In this document: piece by piece, positions 7,386 through 19,821 of the stretch
Numbering within the stretch: position 1 is the stretch's first letter
Layout of the letters: each line of letters begins with the position of its first letter
Virus record (IMG/VR): IMGVR_UViG_3300032294_003095
Length of the DNA stretch: 20,000 nucleotides
Direction: 5' to 3' (one strand)
From: an uncultured virus (IMG/VR IMGVR_UViG_3300032294_003095)
Taxonomy: Duplodnaviria > Heunggongvirae > Uroviricota > Caudoviricetes
Program-made: the position numbers and the translations under genes
Notes under the pieces: generated by a model
Databases searched by the model: none
Seen by the model: only the letters and a program-made list of their open reading frames with translations
Told to the model about the DNA's origin: nothing

Positions 7386-7931
7386 TTGCTAAATAAATCT
7401 GAAAAACTAATAATTTTAGGAAAATCTGGATCGGGTAAAGACTACCTAATGAGGAAACTTATAGAAGAAGGTCTTAAAGGATGTCTAAAAATGACTACTC
7501 GACCAATGAGAGTAAATGAAACTCAAAATGTGACTTATAATTTTGTCGATTTTGAAACTTTTAGTGAAAAAATAAACAATGATGAATTAATCTGTTATCA
7601 AAGATTCTCAGTCACTCCCATAGATAAATCTCCAGAAATTTGGTATTATGGAATAACTAAAGAAGAATTTAACAATTCACAAGTTTTCATAATGACACCA
7701 GGCGATCTATCACAAATAGATCCAGAAACAAGGAAAAAATGTTTTGTTGTTTACCTTGATATCGATAGGAGTATAAGAGAAAGTAGAATTCTTAAAAGAA
7801 ATGATAATAATGATTCAGTTCTTAGAAGATTAGACGCTGATGAAATAGATTTTCAAAATTTTAGAGATTATGATTTGAAGTTGACAGATCCTGAATTTTT
7901 AGCATCAGATGTTTTAAGCCTAATGGATTAA
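7386..7931 (+). CDS. gmk: Guanylate kinase
   Basis: P-loop GKSGSGKD, TTRPMRVNE...YNFV and WYYG motifs typical of Gmk; TTG start. Confidence 0.88.
   Translation: MLNKSEKLIILGKSGSGKDYLMRKLIEEGLKGCLKMTTRPMRVNETQNVTYNFVDFETFSEKINNDELICYQRFSVTPIDKSPEIWYYGITKEEFNNSQVFIMTPGDLSQIDPETRKKCFVVYLDIDRSIRESRILKRNDNNDSVLRRLDADEIDFQNFRDYDLKLTDPEFLASDVLSLMD

Positions 7932-12568: not shown

Positions 12569-12569
<1 letters not shown>
11937..12569 (+). CDS. Hypothetical protein with near-N-terminal KKISGFKKFTE motif
   Basis: 210-aa ORF with TAATATATA at 11905-11913. Confidence 0.7.
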
Positions 12570-14163
<1,594 letters not shown>

Positions 14164-15642: not shown

Positions 15643-16286
15643 ATCTCTAATAGTTTTTTATCTCCATTAAGTTCTTCAAGTAAAGCTCTCTCACCGTGTA
15701 GTTCTTTGACTTTTTGAAGCCATTCTTTTGTTTTAACTTTTACCATCCAGACTTCATCTTTTTGATTTTTTGTTTTCAAAACACCCTTAACAATAACACC
15801 TTCTTTTAGATTGTATTGATTGTCACGGATTGTTTGAACAAAATCCATTGTATAAGGACCCTTGTAAATAACATCAGGAATGTGTAGATGTCCAAAATCT
15901 TCAACAAATTCATAAGGTGAAATTATACCTCTTTTATATTGGTGTATATCAAAAATTACAACGTCTTTTTCTTCATTTGTATGCCTTCCTGAAAATGAAT
16001 TTTCACCAAAAAACTCACCAAATACAACAAAAGTATCCACACTTCTATATTTTTTTCGGAAAACTCTTTCAATATCATCAGAATACTTGTTAAGAAATAT
16101 ATCTATTGAGTGACCAAATATTTCGTCATTTTGGTCTATGAGGTTATTTCTAGTTCCAAATTTATAGAACCCTCTATTACTATTCCACTGAAACCTCACA
16201 TTAGAACCGTCTATTTTGTCGAAGGCTATGCAATATCTGCCAAATTCTATTTTGTTATAGTAGTCTATTTTATTATATCTTTCCAT
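15639..16286 (-). CDS. Second RNA ligase family protein (nucleotidyltransferase domain only)
   Basis: Motifs I FDKIDGSN, III VFGEF, IIIa VIFDI, IV KEGVIVK and V VKVKT. Confidence 0.82.
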   Translation of the reverse strand: MERYNKIDYYNKIEFGRYCIAFDKIDGSNVRFQWNSNRGFYKFGTRNNLIDQNDEIFGHSIDIFLNKYSDDIERVFRKKYRSVDTFVVFGEFFGENSFSGRHTNEEKDVVIFDIHQYKRGIISPYEFVEDFGHLHIPDVIYKGPYTMDFVQTIRDNQYNLKEGVIVKGVLKTKNQKDEVWMVKVKTKEWLQKVKELHGERALLEELNGDKKLLEI

Positions 16287-17338
16287 AGTTTGTGCCTTTT
16301 TGATGAATTTATACTTCTCTTAGTTATACAAAGATTATCAATATGACATATTTCATCTACTGAAATGTCATTTATGAATCCATAATAAATAGATATTTTA
16401 TGGTCAATAGTCGGATAATTTTTATCAGTATTTTTAAGACTTAAATATGTCTTAATGAACTCACCATCATAATAGTCATGTCCATCCCATTTCTCAAATA
16501 ATCTATTTTTAATTTTACTCGTCAGTCTTCTACATTCTCTTTTATACAAGTCAAATGGTAGTAGCAAGTTATCGGGAACTACAAGTCCCTTTTCTATTAA
16601 AGATTTTCTAGATTTTTCCTTTATTTGTAAGTTGTTTTTAAAAAAGTCACTTTGGAACAAATAATCACATCCATACTTTTCATTATTTTTCTTAATAATT
16701 TTATCTTTAATTTCTTCATTTTTTAAAGGATGTCCACCGTAATTTTCATACCAAGTCTCATTCCTCTTTTTATTACATTTATCTAAAAATACTTCTCTCT
16801 CTTCTTTACTCATTTTTTTCCACATAATTTTTGAATTTAAGGAAAAAAGATCACTCTTTGTTAAACCATACTTGTCTAAGTAATAGTTGTCATTATTTAT
16901 TTTATCTATAACCTGTTTTATTTGAAAAACATTATCTACTCCATATTTTTCTTTCACTGTACTATTTTTTTTATCATATTTAATAGTGCCTTTTGATAAA
17001 ACATTTTTAGCTCCATATTTTTTAAAATTGGTCTTCTCTCTTTTATCCATAGAAGATATGGCAGCTGCTGAATACCCTCTCTTGGATATATTATATTGTT
17101 CTAACATAAACAATGTTAAATTATAAGAGACTCCGTATTTTTCCTTTATATCAGGTAATGACATTTTTTTATTAACATAGACATCTAACAAGTTATCATA
17201 TGTAAATATGTTTGGAAAATTATATTCTAAGTACATCCTTTTTAGTTCATTTAAAGGTATGTTATTTTTATTTTCTTTGCAATATTTCAAATGGTTCTGG
17301 CTAGAATCTTTATCACACAAAGGACATTTTTTATTCAT
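16265..17338 (-). CDS. Putative free-standing HNH homing endonuclease with KYG repeats
   Basis: N-terminal CPLC, repeated T/N-x-x-K/E-KYG-x-x-N units, and C-terminal TIDHKISI...NLCITKRSINSSK (HNH-type). It has its own TTATATATA motif at 17351-17359. Confidence 0.7.
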   Translation of the reverse strand: MNKKCPLCDKDSSQNHLKYCKENKNNIPLNELKRMYLEYNFPNIFTYDNLLDVYVNKKMSLPDIKEKYGVSYNLTLFMLEQYNISKRGYSAAAISSMDKREKTNFKKYGAKNVLSKGTIKYDKKNSTVKEKYGVDNVFQIKQVIDKINNDNYYLDKYGLTKSDLFSLNSKIMWKKMSKEEREVFLDKCNKKRNETWYENYGGHPLKNEEIKDKIIKKNNEKYGCDYLFQSDFFKNNLQIKEKSRKSLIEKGLVVPDNLLLPFDLYKRECRRLTSKIKNRLFEKWDGHDYYDGEFIKTYLSLKNTDKNYPTIDHKISIYYGFINDISVDEICHIDNLCITKRSINSSKRHKLWKDIIK

Positions 17339-18483: not shown

Positions 18484-18536
18484 ATATAGATAGTTAATTT
18501 TCTATTATATATTAACTTCTATAAGTTAGATTTTAG

Positions 18537-18626
18537 CAGAGGAGATGGGACTCGAACCCACACACCAGGTTACCCCGATGACCGACTTTCCAGGCCGGAC
18601 CGATACCAGTTTCGGATGACTCCTCT
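18537..18626 (-). tRNA. tRNA-Ser(GGA)
   Basis: Acceptor AGAGGAG/CTCCTCT with G73, anticodon arm CCGGC-CTGGAAA-GTCGG, long variable arm, T arm GTGGG-TTCGAGT-CCCAT; no encoded CCA. Confidence 0.92.
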
Positions 18627-18633
18627 AAATTTG

Positions 18634-18706
18634 TAGTTCCAGTGAGATTCGAACTCACATTATATCTTTCGCAAAGATACGCCCTATCCAGTTGGACGAT
18701 GGAACC
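18634..18706 (-). tRNA. tRNA-Arg(GCG)
   Basis: Acceptor GGTTCCA/TGGAACT, D arm GTCC/GGGC, anticodon arm TATCT-TTGCGAA-AGATA, T arm GTGAG-TTCGAAT-CTCAC; 73 nt. Confidence 0.9.
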
Positions 18707-18711
18707 ATTTG

Positions 18712-18944
18712 TATTCAGAATGGGGCTCGAACCCACATAGATTTAATAAATTGACCTTGGAGAACGCGCTTCCTGAGTGTATCTCAGTGCATCCGCAACC
18801 GTGTGGTCAGAACCTCACACCCTTTGGTCTTATGTCAGTTGAATACACAACCATATCTTTGACAGCCTCCAGTAGCAAGTTAAAATCCCTCAAAAGAGAA
18901 TCCTTTCGTTTTAGGATTGTTTTTCCGATTTAAACTATCTGAAT
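18712..18944 (-). ncRNA. 233-nt tRNA-like RNA with ~163-nt structured variable region
   Basis: Acceptor ATTCAGA/TCTGAAT, D arm GTTT-AAATCGGAA-AAAC, anticodon-position arm ATCCT-AAAACGAA-AGGAT, T arm GTGGG-TTCGAGC-CCCAT; the insert contains several internal helices. Confidence 0.75.
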
Positions 18945-18951
18945 ATTTTAG

Positions 18952-19028
18952 GTAATGATAGATGGAATTGGCCATCTTAAAAGCATTGTCTTAACAGGGA
19001 CTATTTTTAATTTTCGTTATATCATTAC
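18952..19028 (-). ncRNA. 77-nt degenerate tRNA-like element
   Basis: 9-bp terminal stem GTAATGATA/TATCATTAC, T-arm-position hairpin GATGG-CCAATT-CCATC, and a central irregular hairpin whose loop contains CTGTTAA; no D arm. Confidence 0.4.
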
Positions 19029-19116
19029 TGGCGGAGAGCAGTGAACTCGAATCACACTCGTTTACCGAGCCGCTCGCTTAGCAGGCGGCGGTAGCACCCT
19101 GGCTACTTTACTCTCC
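19029..19116 (-). tRNA. tRNA-Ser(GCT), 8/4-type fold, encoded CCA
   Basis: Acceptor GGAGAGTA/TGCTCTCC + GCCA, D stem GTAGC/GCTAC, anticodon loop CTGCTAA, variable arm GCTCG-GTAAA-CGAGT, T arm GTGA-TTCGAGT-TCAC. Confidence 0.88.
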
Positions 19117-19821
19117 CTTTATTTTATACTTTTTAAAAATGTCACTTATTGTTCCCTTTGATGCTTTGAAATGTTTAGCAATTTCAATCTGCTTATATCC
19201 ATTTTTATACATCTCTATAATTTCTGATACATTTAATTTTCTTTGTTTTTCTTTATAATTTTCTAACTTTTCTAATATTTCTTTCTTATGAGTCTCAAAA
19301 AAATCAATATCTGAGTGTTTCAAAACATGGCAATTTTGACAAAGTAAATCACATTTATCTATTTCATTTTTAATTTTCACATCTAATTCAAATATTGAGT
19401 TAATTCTCTCACTTAGTCCTCCAATCCAAAATTCTTTTTCACTTGGATCTCTATGATGAAATCCTAAAGATGCTGGACATTTATTATATCCACATTCTAC
19501 ACAACATCCACCAGAATATTCCAAATATATTAATTTATCTGTTCTCCTTGAATCATTATACTTTGCTTCATTTTTATAATGCAATTCTCTATGGCAATTT
19601 TGACATAGCAAATCACATTTTTTTAATTCTGATTCTAATTTATTCCAACCTGACCATTGGTATTCATTAAATTCAAATTCTTTATCATCTATATTAATAT
19701 GATGAAATGTTAACTTAAAGATGTTTCTTTCACCACACGATTTACAACTTCCACCTAAATAGTTTATCGCCTTTAATTTTTTTGCATATTTTAATATTTT
19801 TGTAATTTTTAATTTATCCAT
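19108..19821 (-). CDS. Tandem-domain HNH endonuclease with C-terminal HTH, inside the tRNA cluster
   Basis: Two copies of GGxCxxCG...LxFHH...KEF...KCDLLCQNCH, then HTH-like YKQIEIAKHFKASKGTISDI; own TAATATATA at 19841-19849. Confidence 0.85.
   Translation of the reverse strand: MDKLKITKILKYAKKLKAINYLGGSCKSCGERNIFKLTFHHINIDDKEFEFNEYQWSGWNKLESELKKCDLLCQNCHRELHYKNEAKYNDSRRTDKLIYLEYSGGCCVECGYNKCPASLGFHHRDPSEKEFWIGGLSERINSIFELDVKIKNEIDKCDLLCQNCHVLKHSDIDFFETHKKEILEKLENYKEKQRKLNVSEIIEMYKNGYKQIEIAKHFKASKGTISDIFKKYKIKGE

What the first reader, a model, noticed from the sequence alone, without database searches (positions are those of the whole stretch)
18712..18944. 233-nt tRNA-shaped RNA carrying a ~163-nt structured domain in place of the variable arm
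Seen: a full acceptor stem, U8-A9, a D arm with GG and a canonical TTCGA T loop. The anticodon-position arm has an 8-nt loop AAAACGAA that lacks U33, so it is unlikely to decode. The insert is GC-rich and helical: an irregular closing helix GATTTTAA..TTG..TGGAG/CTCCA..CAA..TTAAATC, plus TGTCA/TGACA, GTTG/CAAC, GTGTG/CACAC, GGATGC/GCGTTC and CTGAG/CTCAG. It is spaced in the tRNA array like a normal tRNA. There is no G3-U70 pair, so it is not a standard tmRNA, and I see no correctly ordered group I intron core. Inference: a possibly new ncRNA class that uses a tRNA scaffold for processing and stability, acting as a nuclease decoy, ribozyme, tmRNA analogue, or substrate for the neighbouring RNA ligases.
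Basis: partly seen in the sequence, partly recalled or inferred. Interest (0 to 1): 0.85.

Follow-up and report, generated by a model that had tools for sequence, protein, structure and literature searches.

The report
Phage tRNA-shaped gene with big insert
A large uncultured phage carries, inside its tRNA gene row, a 233-base gene that has the ends and elbow of a tRNA but cannot read codons and holds a 162-base extra segment; such unexplained insert-bearing tRNA look-alikes are already known from giant phages, so this is a new example rather than a new kind.

Summary
On the minus strand of 18712-18944 lies a 233-nt tRNA-shaped gene: a 7-bp acceptor stem, U8-A9, a D arm with GG, a T arm, a closed 5-bp hairpin with the 8-nt loop AAAACGAA (no U33), and 162 nt where the variable region should be.

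It sits in a tRNA array and recurs at 97.9-100% identity in 5 other contigs, always in the same array position. No Rfam family, tmRNA or group I intron matches.

The claimed helices are complementary, but they are not supported statistically. The insert folds no better than shuffles (z = +0.65), and 0 of 63 pairs show compensatory change. The RNA-ligase neighbourhood is absent from the one other contig that could be searched.

The phage is a relative of the >600-kb "Mahaphage" genomes. Related megaphages (Lak) are already reported to carry "enigmatic" tRNA introns of 23-141 nt, T4 has stable RNAs in its tRNA cluster, and this scan has noted at least 11 similar cases.

Best reading (0.45): a non-decoding, tRNA-framed stable RNA. 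Rivals are a spliced tRNA (0.2) and a hitch-hiking insertion-disrupted pseudogene (0.25). I class it as a new variant of a known but unexplained kind.

The parts
18712..18944 (-). Whole 233-nt tRNA-shaped gene ('el'); RNA position p = 18945 - coordinate
   Evidence: Sequence. ARAGORN calls it only with the intron option. 97.9-100% identical copies lie in L081, L084, L086, L092 and L093.
18938..18944 (-). Acceptor stem 5' strand AUUCAGA (p1-7)
   Evidence: 7 Watson-Crick pairs with p226-232; invariant in 6 copies.
18919..18935 (-). D arm GUUU-AAAUCGGAA-AAAC (p10-26), with the GG of the elbow
18900..18917 (-). Hairpin at the anticodon-arm position: AUCCU / AAAACGAA / AGGAU (p28-45). The loop has 8 nt and no U33.
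   Evidence: U32-A41 becomes U-G in L084.
18737..18898 (-). 162-nt insert (p47-208) at the variable-region position, with a GC-rich core
   Evidence: GC 43.2% against 29.4% for the window. 8 variable sites among 6 copies. No Rfam match at E<=10. Fold z = +0.65.
18720..18736 (-). T arm GUGGG-UUCGAGC-CCCAU (p209-225)
   Evidence: 16/17 identical by my count to the T arm of the neighbouring tRNA-Ser(GGA), read.
18712..18719 (-). Acceptor 3' strand UCUGAAU plus discriminator A (G in L084). No CCA is encoded.
18633..18706 (-). tRNA-Arg(GCG), next gene in the array, 5 nt after el
   Evidence: ARAGORN; Rfam tRNA 57 bits.
18536..18626 (-). tRNA-Ser(GGA), last gene of the array
   Evidence: ARAGORN; Rfam tRNA 29.4 bits.
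19029..19116 (-). Unusual tRNA-Ser(GCU)-like gene upstream of el, with a 6-bp anticodon stem and a bulged A
   Evidence: Found only with ARAGORN -ps. Compensatory G-C to A-U changes appear in the copies of L086, L093 and L095.
18949..19030 (.). ~82-nt presence/absence insertion between the Ser(GCU)-like gene and el, with inverted ends GTAATGATA / TATCATTAC. Not part of el.
   Evidence: Present in the window and L081, absent from L084, L086, L092 and L093. Inverted repeat I1.

Best explanation
This is a non-decoding, tRNA-framed stable RNA of a megaphage-related phage.

Shown:
- The gene keeps every part of a tRNA that the processing and elbow-recognising enzymes use: a 7-bp acceptor stem, U8, a D loop with GG, and a UUCGA T loop.
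- It sits head-to-tail in a tRNA array.
- Its hairpin at the anticodon position has an 8-nt loop without U33.
- It carries 162 GC-rich nucleotides at the variable-region position. That is the one place where class II tRNAs already tolerate an extra arm.

Inferred:
- It is transcribed with the array on the minus strand.
- It is cut out by RNase P and the 3' processing enzymes like its neighbours.
- It accumulates as a ~233-nt L-shaped RNA that cannot read codons.
- The tRNA frame serves for processing and stability, and the insert is the working part.
- The most plausible job is as a tRNA look-alike that engages a tRNA-binding or tRNA-cutting factor during infection. The partner is unknown.
- By its T arm and array position it probably descends from a class II (Ser-type) tRNA.
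For: The frame is intact and invariant in 6 copies.

ARAGORN at default settings called a tRNA in 462 of 3,430 deletion constructs, 387 of them with the 8-nt loop.

The array position is the same (Ser(GCU)-like | el | Arg | Ser(GGA)) in all four copies that have the upstream gene, and in L081 without it.

The insert is as conserved as the flanking true tRNAs:
- 0-5 differences in 162 nt, against 3/74 for tRNA-Arg in three of the five copies (0/74 in L086; 20/74 in L081, where it is an Arg(ACG) gene) and 2-4/91 for tRNA-Ser(GGA).
- The sequence beyond the array is 9% diverged in L086 or unalignable in the others.

Insert GC is 43-50% in a 29% GC genome, like the tRNAs.

The three one-sided changes keep pairing: U-A to U-G twice and G-C to G-U once.

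No intron model gives a sound tRNA.

Precedents:
- T4's tRNA-cluster transcript is also the precursor of species I and II RNAs (PMC2330249, passage read).
- T4 rnaC is annotated as a 'small, stable RNA' and carries a T arm near its 3' end.
- Related arrays hold other conserved insert-bearing tRNA-shaped genes.
Against:
- The insert's predicted fold is no better than shuffles.
- There is no compensatory change (0 of 63 pairs), and 3 pairs break in some copies.
- All 6 copies are at least 97.9% identical. The window and L086 share a 313-nt block (el plus tRNA-Arg) with 0 differences amid 4-9% diverged flanks. This looks like recent exchange of a cassette, so conservation need not mean selection.
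- Homing endonuclease genes flank the array, which could drive such exchange.
- No distant homologue was found.
Confidence: 0.45

Rival explanations
1. It is an intron-containing tRNA gene of the 'enigmatic megaphage tRNA intron' kind. In this reading the ~148-156-nt insert is removed, either by itself or by proteins (an endonuclease plus an RNA ligase), and a working tRNA results.
For: - Lak megaphages, which are in the same Mahaphage clade (PMC7162821, passages), are reported to have tRNAs with highly conserved introns. Table S6 lists inserts of 23-141 nt (PMC6784885).
- ARAGORN with its intron option calls el as a tRNA with an intron.
- In its first model the 5' exon ends in U and the insert ends in G. 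By my reading of the sequence, the loop bases G38-A40 could pair with the first three bases after the insert.
- A related array holds a tRNA-Leu(UAA)-like gene whose anticodon stem closes across a 50-nt insert, with one compensatory and one wobble-to-Watson-Crick change.
- Two RNA ligase genes lie downstream in the window.
Against: - ARAGORN gives three different models for near-identical copies: Glu-CUC with a 148-nt insert, Leu-CAA with 155 nt, and Ser-CGA with 156 nt.
- Every model has a poor anticodon stem (3-4 of 5 pairs) and a pyrimidine at position 37.
- In two of the models the A193G polymorphism would switch the anticodon from Leu to Ser.
- The perfect hairpin 28-45 is left unexplained.
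- There is no group I match at E<=10 on 246 nt.
- The U-1 pairs with A, not G, in 5 of 6 copies.
- From recall, 148-162 nt is smaller than known self-splicing group I introns.
- Unlike the Lak cases, no intact anticodon stem flanks the insert.
- The ligase neighbourhood is not conserved.
Confidence: 0.2
2. It is a dead tRNA gene. A class II tRNA was hit by a small insertion element and its anticodon loop decayed. It is carried along in a mobile tRNA cassette that homing endonucleases spread between phages.
For: - The insert ends form an imperfect inverted repeat, GAUUUUAA..UUAAAUC.
- An unrelated ~82-nt inverted-repeat insertion sits right next to el, as a presence/absence polymorphism.
- HNH and other homing endonuclease genes lie on both sides, and there is a GIY-YIG-like ORF in the related array L095 (my reading).
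- There are 0 differences over el plus tRNA-Arg between the window and L086, amid diverged flanks.
- The fold is no better than chance.
- The loop is not decodable.
Against: - No second copy of the insert was found anywhere. All 5 other occurrences are in the same tRNA frame, and there are none in two >630-kb relatives and three IMG/VR contigs.
- I could see no target-site duplication.
- The GC-rich composition is kept in a 29% GC genome.
- The insert is no more variable than the true tRNAs beside it.
- The frame is fully intact, with no broken pair in the acceptor, D or T stems in any copy.
Confidence: 0.25
3. It is a tmRNA analogue: the tRNA-like ends are charged and the insert supplies a tag-encoding frame.
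For: - The topology resembles tmRNA (tRNA-like ends with a large internal domain).
- Huge phages are reported to encode tmRNAs and SmpB (PMC7162821).
- By my reading, a 19-codon frame starts at GCU (p79) and ends at UGA. The U81A polymorphism is synonymous in that frame.
Against: - ARAGORN tmRNA mode finds nothing, even at lowered thresholds.
- No Rfam tmRNA family matches at E<=10.
- The pair is U3-A70, not G3-U70.
- A complete D arm and an extra hairpin are present, which tmRNAs lack.
- The frame does not end in a typical hydrophobic tag (from recall).
Confidence: 0.03

Closest known systems
'Enigmatic' tRNA introns of Lak megaphages (Devoto et al. 2019, PMC6784885; main text passages and Table S6 read)
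   Same: - Both are oversized tRNA genes in the tRNA clusters of Mahaphage-clade phages.
- The inserts match no known intron class.
- The sequence is almost unchanged between samples.
- Sizes overlap (23-141 nt there, 148-162 nt here).
- Some inserts there contain tRNA-like pieces. Here hairpin p125-144 weakly resembles a T arm, but not above chance.
   Different: - In the Lak cases the insert follows position 37 inside an otherwise normal anticodon loop, flanked by an intact anticodon stem, so removal gives a normal tRNA. Here no such reading exists, and the insert follows a closed 8-nt-loop hairpin.
- By my reading of Table S6, most of the longer Lak inserts that recur across cohorts (Tyr, Thr, Gly) begin UACA or ACAGG, Phe begins UAACAG, and they end in (G/A)CA or GCUA; el's does not.
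- No sequence similarity was detected: blastn of the el region against the phage collection found nothing.
Phage T4 species 1 and 2 RNAs (rnaC, rnaD)
   Same: - They are small stable RNAs encoded inside a phage tRNA cluster, next to a homing endonuclease gene, and made from the same precursor as the tRNAs (PMC2330249; annotation).
- rnaC has a canonical T arm near its 3' end.
- Their function is unknown (from recall).
   Different: - rnaC (139 nt) and rnaD (119 nt) lack a 7-bp acceptor stem and a D arm, whereas el keeps the whole frame.
- I saw no sequence similarity.
- T4's RNAs are proven to be expressed; el's expression is unknown.
Class II tRNAs (Ser, Leu, bacterial Tyr, Sec) with long variable arms
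   Same: - The extra arm emerges at the same place.
- The T arm is 16/17 identical to that of the neighbouring tRNA-Ser(GGA).
- El lies in the Arg/Ser section of the array.
   Different: - Class II arms are longer than 10 nt, but only tens of nucleotides (PMC7609411, passage); here the region is 162 nt.
- The anticodon loop has 8 nt and lacks U33.
- The discriminator is A in 5 of 6 copies, whereas SerRS uses G73 (PMC7609411).
tmRNA
   Same: tRNA-like ends enclose a large internal domain.
   Different: It fails G3-U70, ARAGORN tmRNA mode and the Rfam tmRNA families, and it has complete D and anticodon-position arms.

Membership tests
Canonical decoding tRNA | 7-bp acceptor stem, D arm with G18G19, and T arm with a UUCRA loop | tested here: met
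Canonical decoding tRNA | 7-nt anticodon loop with U33 and a purine at position 37 | tested here: not met
   The loop is AAAACGAA (8 nt, no U33) in all 6 copies.
Canonical decoding tRNA | Variable region of 4-5 nt (class I) or more than 10 nt but only tens of nt (class II); Rfam RF00005 at or above 29 bits | tested here: not met
   The region is 162 nt. The best RF00005 match is a partial one of 13.8 bits, and default ARAGORN is silent.
tmRNA | G3-U70 alanine identity pair | tested here: not met
   The pair is U3-A230.
tmRNA | Detection by ARAGORN tmRNA mode or by the Rfam tmRNA families | tested here: not met
Group I intron in a tRNA gene | Catalytic core recognisable by a covariance model (Rfam Intron_gpI) | tested here: not met
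   No match at E<=10 on 801 nt or on 246 nt. The bacterial-tRNA-specific model of Williams (10.1101/2020.01.27.920355, read) was not available.
Group I intron in a tRNA gene | U-1 in a U-G wobble in P1, a G at the intron's 3' end, and exons that join into a sound tRNA | tested here: not met
   U32 pairs with A41 in 5 of 6 copies and with G only in L084. ARAGORN's first model does end in G. The joined exons give only 3-4 of 5 stem pairs.
Lak-type 'enigmatic' megaphage tRNA intron | An oversized tRNA gene in a Mahaphage-clade phage, with an insert nearly identical across samples and matching no Rfam family | tested here: met
   Baseplate wedge protein 65-69% identical to LR756502.1 and LR745206.1, with Lak (Prevotella) phages also among the hits; synteny; 6 copies at 97.9% identity or more; Rfam.
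Lak-type 'enigmatic' megaphage tRNA intron | Insert after position 37, flanked by an intact anticodon stem, so that excision gives a normal tRNA | tested here: not met
   Deletion scan and ARAGORN intron models, compared with Table S6.
T4-type stable RNA of a tRNA cluster | Encoded within and co-oriented with a phage tRNA array, with tRNA-like 3' features | tested here: met
T4-type stable RNA of a tRNA cluster | Accumulates as a stable processed RNA | not testable with these tools
Miniature inverted-repeat insertion element | Terminal inverted repeats, a target-site duplication, and several copies in different contexts | tested here: not met
   The ends are only imperfect inverted repeats. I saw no duplication. 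There are 0 copies outside the same tRNA frame.

The most novel reading that the evidence does not exclude
Megaphage-type phages may use the tRNA frame as a general delivery and processing cassette for functional RNA modules. On this reading, el's 162-nt GC-rich module is a working RNA presented on an L-shaped tRNA body. It could be a binding site, a nested mini-tRNA, or a catalytic or protein-assisted self-excising unit. El would then belong, with the other insert-bearing tRNA-shaped genes in related arrays, to an undescribed functional class that acts in the conflict over host tRNA-targeting defences.
Probability: 0.15. Interest if true: 0.8.

Novelty: new variant of a known kind. Interest (0 to 1): 0.5.

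Why it matters
Large phages carry dozens of tRNA genes, and oversized tRNA-shaped genes keep turning up among them with no known role or mechanism. Examples are the Lak 'enigmatic introns', the T4 species 1 and 2 RNAs, and many notes in this scan.

This case adds a well-delimited family:
- 6 copies;
- the largest insert of those compared here;
- the insert lies in the variable region, not the anticodon loop;
- every intron model I could build fails.

That pushes the balance towards tRNA mimicry rather than splicing. If such RNAs prove functional, they would be a new layer of phage control over translation or over tRNA-directed host defence. They would also be a natural counterpart of the engineered tRNA scaffolds used to express RNAs.

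Tried and rejected
**Intron models.** ARAGORN's intron option gave three mutually inconsistent models. A deletion scan of 3,430 constructs found no excision that gives a sound 7-nt-loop tRNA.

**Group I fit by hand.** I found no P7, and no P3/P8 arrangement in the right order. A P1/P10-like alignment of the first hairpin is probably chance.

**Search for distant homologues.**
- blastn against INPHARED phages: none.
- Three exact patterns in IMG/VR found only one contig.
- One metagenome scan gave 10 loci, of which 4 are true and all near-identical.
- The GTDB genome scan gave 2 chance hits.
- BLAST against two >630-kb relatives and three IMG/VR contigs gave only T-arm-level matches and one chance hit in an RNase H gene.

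**'Empty-site' tRNA.** Searching with the frame's 5' and 3' halves found none. Neighbour-anchored scans found arrays with tRNA-Arg(GCG) or (ACG) but without el.

**Is the insert built from degenerate tRNA pieces?** The best local score against 113 tRNAs was 22, against a null maximum of 21.4 +/- 2.2, so this is not significant.

**Similarity to other long tRNA-like genes.** Scores were 34-35 against 24 +/- 4.4, with 2-10 of 200 shuffles as high, which is marginal. I treat the shared short motifs (AGGAUUCUCU, UCUCUUUUGA) only as a lead.

**Antisense ORF of 74 codons (18709-18933, plus strand).**
- No PHROG match.
- By my count, 4 of 9 substitutions are synonymous.
- A 1-nt indel in 2 copies shifts its end.
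- I reject it as a gene, without a wide protein search.

**Promoter and terminator scan.** Nothing above chance.

**Not pursued.** I did not build a covariance model of el, because six near-identical seeds add nothing over BLAST. One script timed out; I redid it in simpler form.

Full report
**What is there**

The feature lies on the minus strand. Default ARAGORN and Rfam find only two tRNAs there: tRNA-Ser(GGA) at 18536-18626 and tRNA-Arg(GCG) at 18633-18706.

I read 18944 to 18712 as RNA, numbering positions 1-233. The gene has these parts:
- a 7-bp Watson-Crick acceptor stem (1-7 with 226-232);
- U8-A9;
- a D arm GUUU/AAAC with the loop AAAUCGGAA;
- a 5-bp hairpin AUCCU/AGGAU with the 8-nt loop AAAACGAA;
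- 162 nt (47-208);
- a T arm GUGGG-UUCGAGC-CCCAU;
- discriminator A.

It is followed after 5 nt by tRNA-Arg.

A deletion scan supports the frame. I made 3,430 internal-deletion constructs. ARAGORN at default settings called a tRNA in 462 of them, and in 387 of those it reported an 8-nt loop with a four-base 'anticodon'.

**Known families**

- Rfam at gathering thresholds and at E<=10 on 801 nt and on 246 nt gives no family for the element. There is no group I intron, tmRNA or ribozyme match; the only tRNA match is a partial one of 13.8 bits.
- ARAGORN's tmRNA mode finds nothing, even at lowered thresholds.
- Position 3 pairs as U-A, not G-U.

**Is the insert structured?**

This is not more than chance would give.
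- The minimum free energy of the whole RNA is -55.6 kcal/mol against -54.8 +/- 4.5 for dinucleotide shuffles (z = -0.18).
- For the insert alone (58-205) it is -31.9 against -34.3 +/- 3.6 (z = +0.65; 149 of 200 shuffles fold at least as well).

What does stand out is composition. The insert has 43.2% GC and its core 49.6%, in a window of 29.4%. Only 2.2% of 992 160-nt windows reach the insert's value, and most of those are the tRNAs themselves.

**Relatives**

| Search | Result |
|---|---|
| blastn against the phage collection | nothing |
| Three exact patterns in IMG/VR | one contig (L081, 97.9% identical) |
| One metagenome scan | 10 loci, 4 true copies: L086 100%, L092 and L084 98.3%, L093 97.9% |
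| Scan of 185,579 species genomes | two chance 18-mers |

The six copies differ at 10 sites: 41 A/G, a 1-nt deletion in the U run 50-53, 57 G/U, 81 U/A, 144 C/U, 179 C/A, 193 A/G, 200 U/G, 219 G/U and 233 A/G.

- 0 pairs change on both sides;
- 3 change on one side and stay paired (32-41, 68-193, 125-144);
- 3 lose pairing in some copies (63-200, 81-112, 155-179).

So the family is too shallow to test the fold.

**Conservation**

In all copies that retain the upstream gene, the order is Ser(GCU)-like | el | Arg | Ser(GGA).

Differences relative to the window:

| Segment | L086 | Other four contigs |
|---|---|---|
| Insert (162 nt) | 0 | 2-5 |
| tRNA-Arg (74 nt) | 0 | 3 in three of them; 20 in L081 |
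| tRNA-Ser(GGA) (91 nt) | 4 | 2-4 in three of them; not alignable in L081 |
| Downstream spacer | 5 of 62 | not alignable |
| Downstream coding sequence | 21 of 214 | not alignable |

The insert is thus no more variable than true tRNAs. However, the 313-nt block (el plus Arg) with zero differences, set amid 4-9% diverged flanks, looks like recent exchange of a cassette. Homing-endonuclease genes lie on both sides: an HNH-HTH gene at 19108-19821 and a DUF7487/homing-endonuclease gene at 16265-17338. Conservation therefore does not by itself prove selection.

**Intron readings**

With its intron option, ARAGORN calls the window copy tRNA-Glu(CUC) with a 148-nt intron. It calls L081 tRNA-Leu(CAA) with 155 nt, and L092/L093 tRNA-Ser(CGA) with 155-156 nt. 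That is three models for near-identical sequences.

All three models have weaknesses:
- only 3-4 of 5 anticodon-stem pairs;
- a pyrimidine at position 37;
- in two of them, the A193G polymorphism would change the amino-acid identity.

I also tried to fit a group I core by hand and failed. The perfect hairpin 28-45 has no role in any of these models. I therefore regard splicing as possible but not favoured.

**Context**

The baseplate wedge protein of the window is 65-69% identical to those of two uncultured phages of 642 and 635 kb (LR756502.1 and LR745206.1). It is more distantly related to 15 Prevotella phage records. Window positions 4.7-12.6 kb are syntenic with the two large genomes.

Genomes above 634 kb belong to the 'Mahaphage' clade, which also holds the Lak megaphages and is predicted to infect Bacteroidetes (PMC7162821, passages). 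BLAST of el against both large genomes and three IMG/VR contigs gave no homologue.

The two RNA ligases (PF09414, 14511-15203 and 15639-16286) lie downstream on the same strand. The 25.6-kb contig of L081 extends about 24 kb on that side and has no PF09414 match. The other four records could not be searched. The link to the ligases is therefore not conserved where it could be tested.

**What is already known**

Devoto et al. (PMC6784885; abstract, results passages and Table S6 read) reported that Lak megaphage tRNAs carry 'enigmatic', highly conserved introns.
- The inserts are 23-141 nt.
- They were placed after position 37 by tRNAscan-SE in eukaryotic mode.
- They are identical across cohorts.
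- One possibly contains a tRNA.
- They also list oversized unclassifiable tRNA-like genes in another huge phage.

T4's tRNA cluster encodes the stable RNAs rnaC and rnaD (annotation). These come from the same precursor as the tRNAs (PMC2330249). rnaC has a canonical T arm near its 3' end but no 7-bp acceptor stem.

This scan's own notes list at least 11 insert-bearing tRNA-shaped genes in large phages. I used these notes as leads only; one of them pointed me to the Devoto paper. The scan has thus found this kind before on other DNA.

**Related oddities seen here**

Arrays of the relatives hold other long tRNA-like genes.
- A 142-nt tRNA-Leu(UAA)-like gene has its anticodon stem closing across a 50-nt insert. 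Comparison of its two copies shows U-A to A-U and U-G to C-G changes in that stem, and compensatory changes in two insert hairpins.
- A 127-129-nt family occurs in five contigs, with compensatory T-stem changes.
- Further long genes of 105-123 nt are present.
- These inserts share short motifs with el positions 39-55. That is a lead, not a proof of homology.

**Verdict**

The element is real and tRNA-derived, and it is unlikely to decode. The most likely reading (0.45) is a tRNA-framed stable RNA: cut out of the array transcript like a tRNA, with the insert as its functional or at least tolerated cargo. Its origin from a class II (Ser-type) tRNA is suggested by the T arm, which is 16 of 17 identical to the neighbouring tRNA-Ser(GGA), and by its place in the Arg/Ser part of the array.

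The rivals are:
- a spliced 'enigmatic intron' tRNA (0.2);
- an insertion-disrupted pseudogene carried in a mobile cassette (0.25);
- a tmRNA analogue (0.03).

It is not a new class. It is a new sequence family and a positional variant (insert in the variable region, 8-nt closed loop) of a known, unexplained phenomenon of large phages. RNA data would settle it.

Noticed in passing
window 19029-19116 (-): A tRNA-Ser(GCU)-like gene that default ARAGORN and Rfam miss. Its anticodon stem has 6 bp with a bulged A, which can also be read as an 11-nt loop. Copies in L086, L093 and L095 show compensatory G-C to A-U changes in that stem and U-A to A-U in the variable arm, so the odd stem is real.
   Followed up: partly
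window 18949-19030: An ~82-nt insertion with inverted ends GTAATGATA/TATCATTAC lies between the Ser(GCU)-like gene and el. It is present only in the window and L081 (about 91% identical) and absent from the four metagenome copies, so it looks like a miniature mobile element. Its GC is 29%, like the genome's.
   Followed up: partly
L107:330-473 (= L112:8263-8404) and L115/L122: A 142-nt tRNA-Leu(UAA)-like gene with a 50-nt insert between positions 32 and 33. The anticodon stem closes across the insert, and two insert hairpins covary between the two copies. 50 nt is too short for a group I intron.
   Followed up: partly
L107:1143-1271, L093:1917-2047 (-), L114, L115, L116: A family of 127-129-nt tRNA-like genes in five large-phage contigs. 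They have canonical acceptor, D and T arms, and about 75 nt in place of the 17-nt anticodon arm. Rfam scores the L093 copy at 43.7 bits by skipping that arm.
   Followed up: partly
L108-L113 (arrays of LR745206.1, LR756502.1 and a 476-kb IMG/VR contig): Many class I isoacceptors (Asn, Arg, Lys, Thr, Ile, Met, Glu) occur both as a normal 72-76-nt gene and as an 81-92-nt gene with a long variable arm. There are also array gaps of 75-330 nt that hold further tRNA-like genes missed by ARAGORN, and one tRNA with an 8-nt loop (acat).
   Followed up: no
window 16265-17338 (-), 19108-19821 (-); L095:1880-2460: Homing-endonuclease-type genes (DUF7487 with an HNH-like C-terminus, HNH+HTH, and a GIY-YIG-like ORF in L095) are interleaved with the tRNA arrays, as segB is in T4. 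They may explain the cassette-like exchange of el plus tRNA-Arg.
   Followed up: no
window 12946-14163 (+), 12569-12895 (+), 7386-7931 (+): The phage encodes an adenylosuccinate synthetase (PurA family, E = 2.8e-139), an Fe-S cluster assembly protein and a guanylate-kinase-like protein.
   Followed up: no
window 18709-18933 (+): A 74-codon open frame runs antisense across almost the whole element. It has no PHROG match, and a 1-nt indel in two copies shifts its end. It is probably a by-product of the GC-rich composition.
   Followed up: partly
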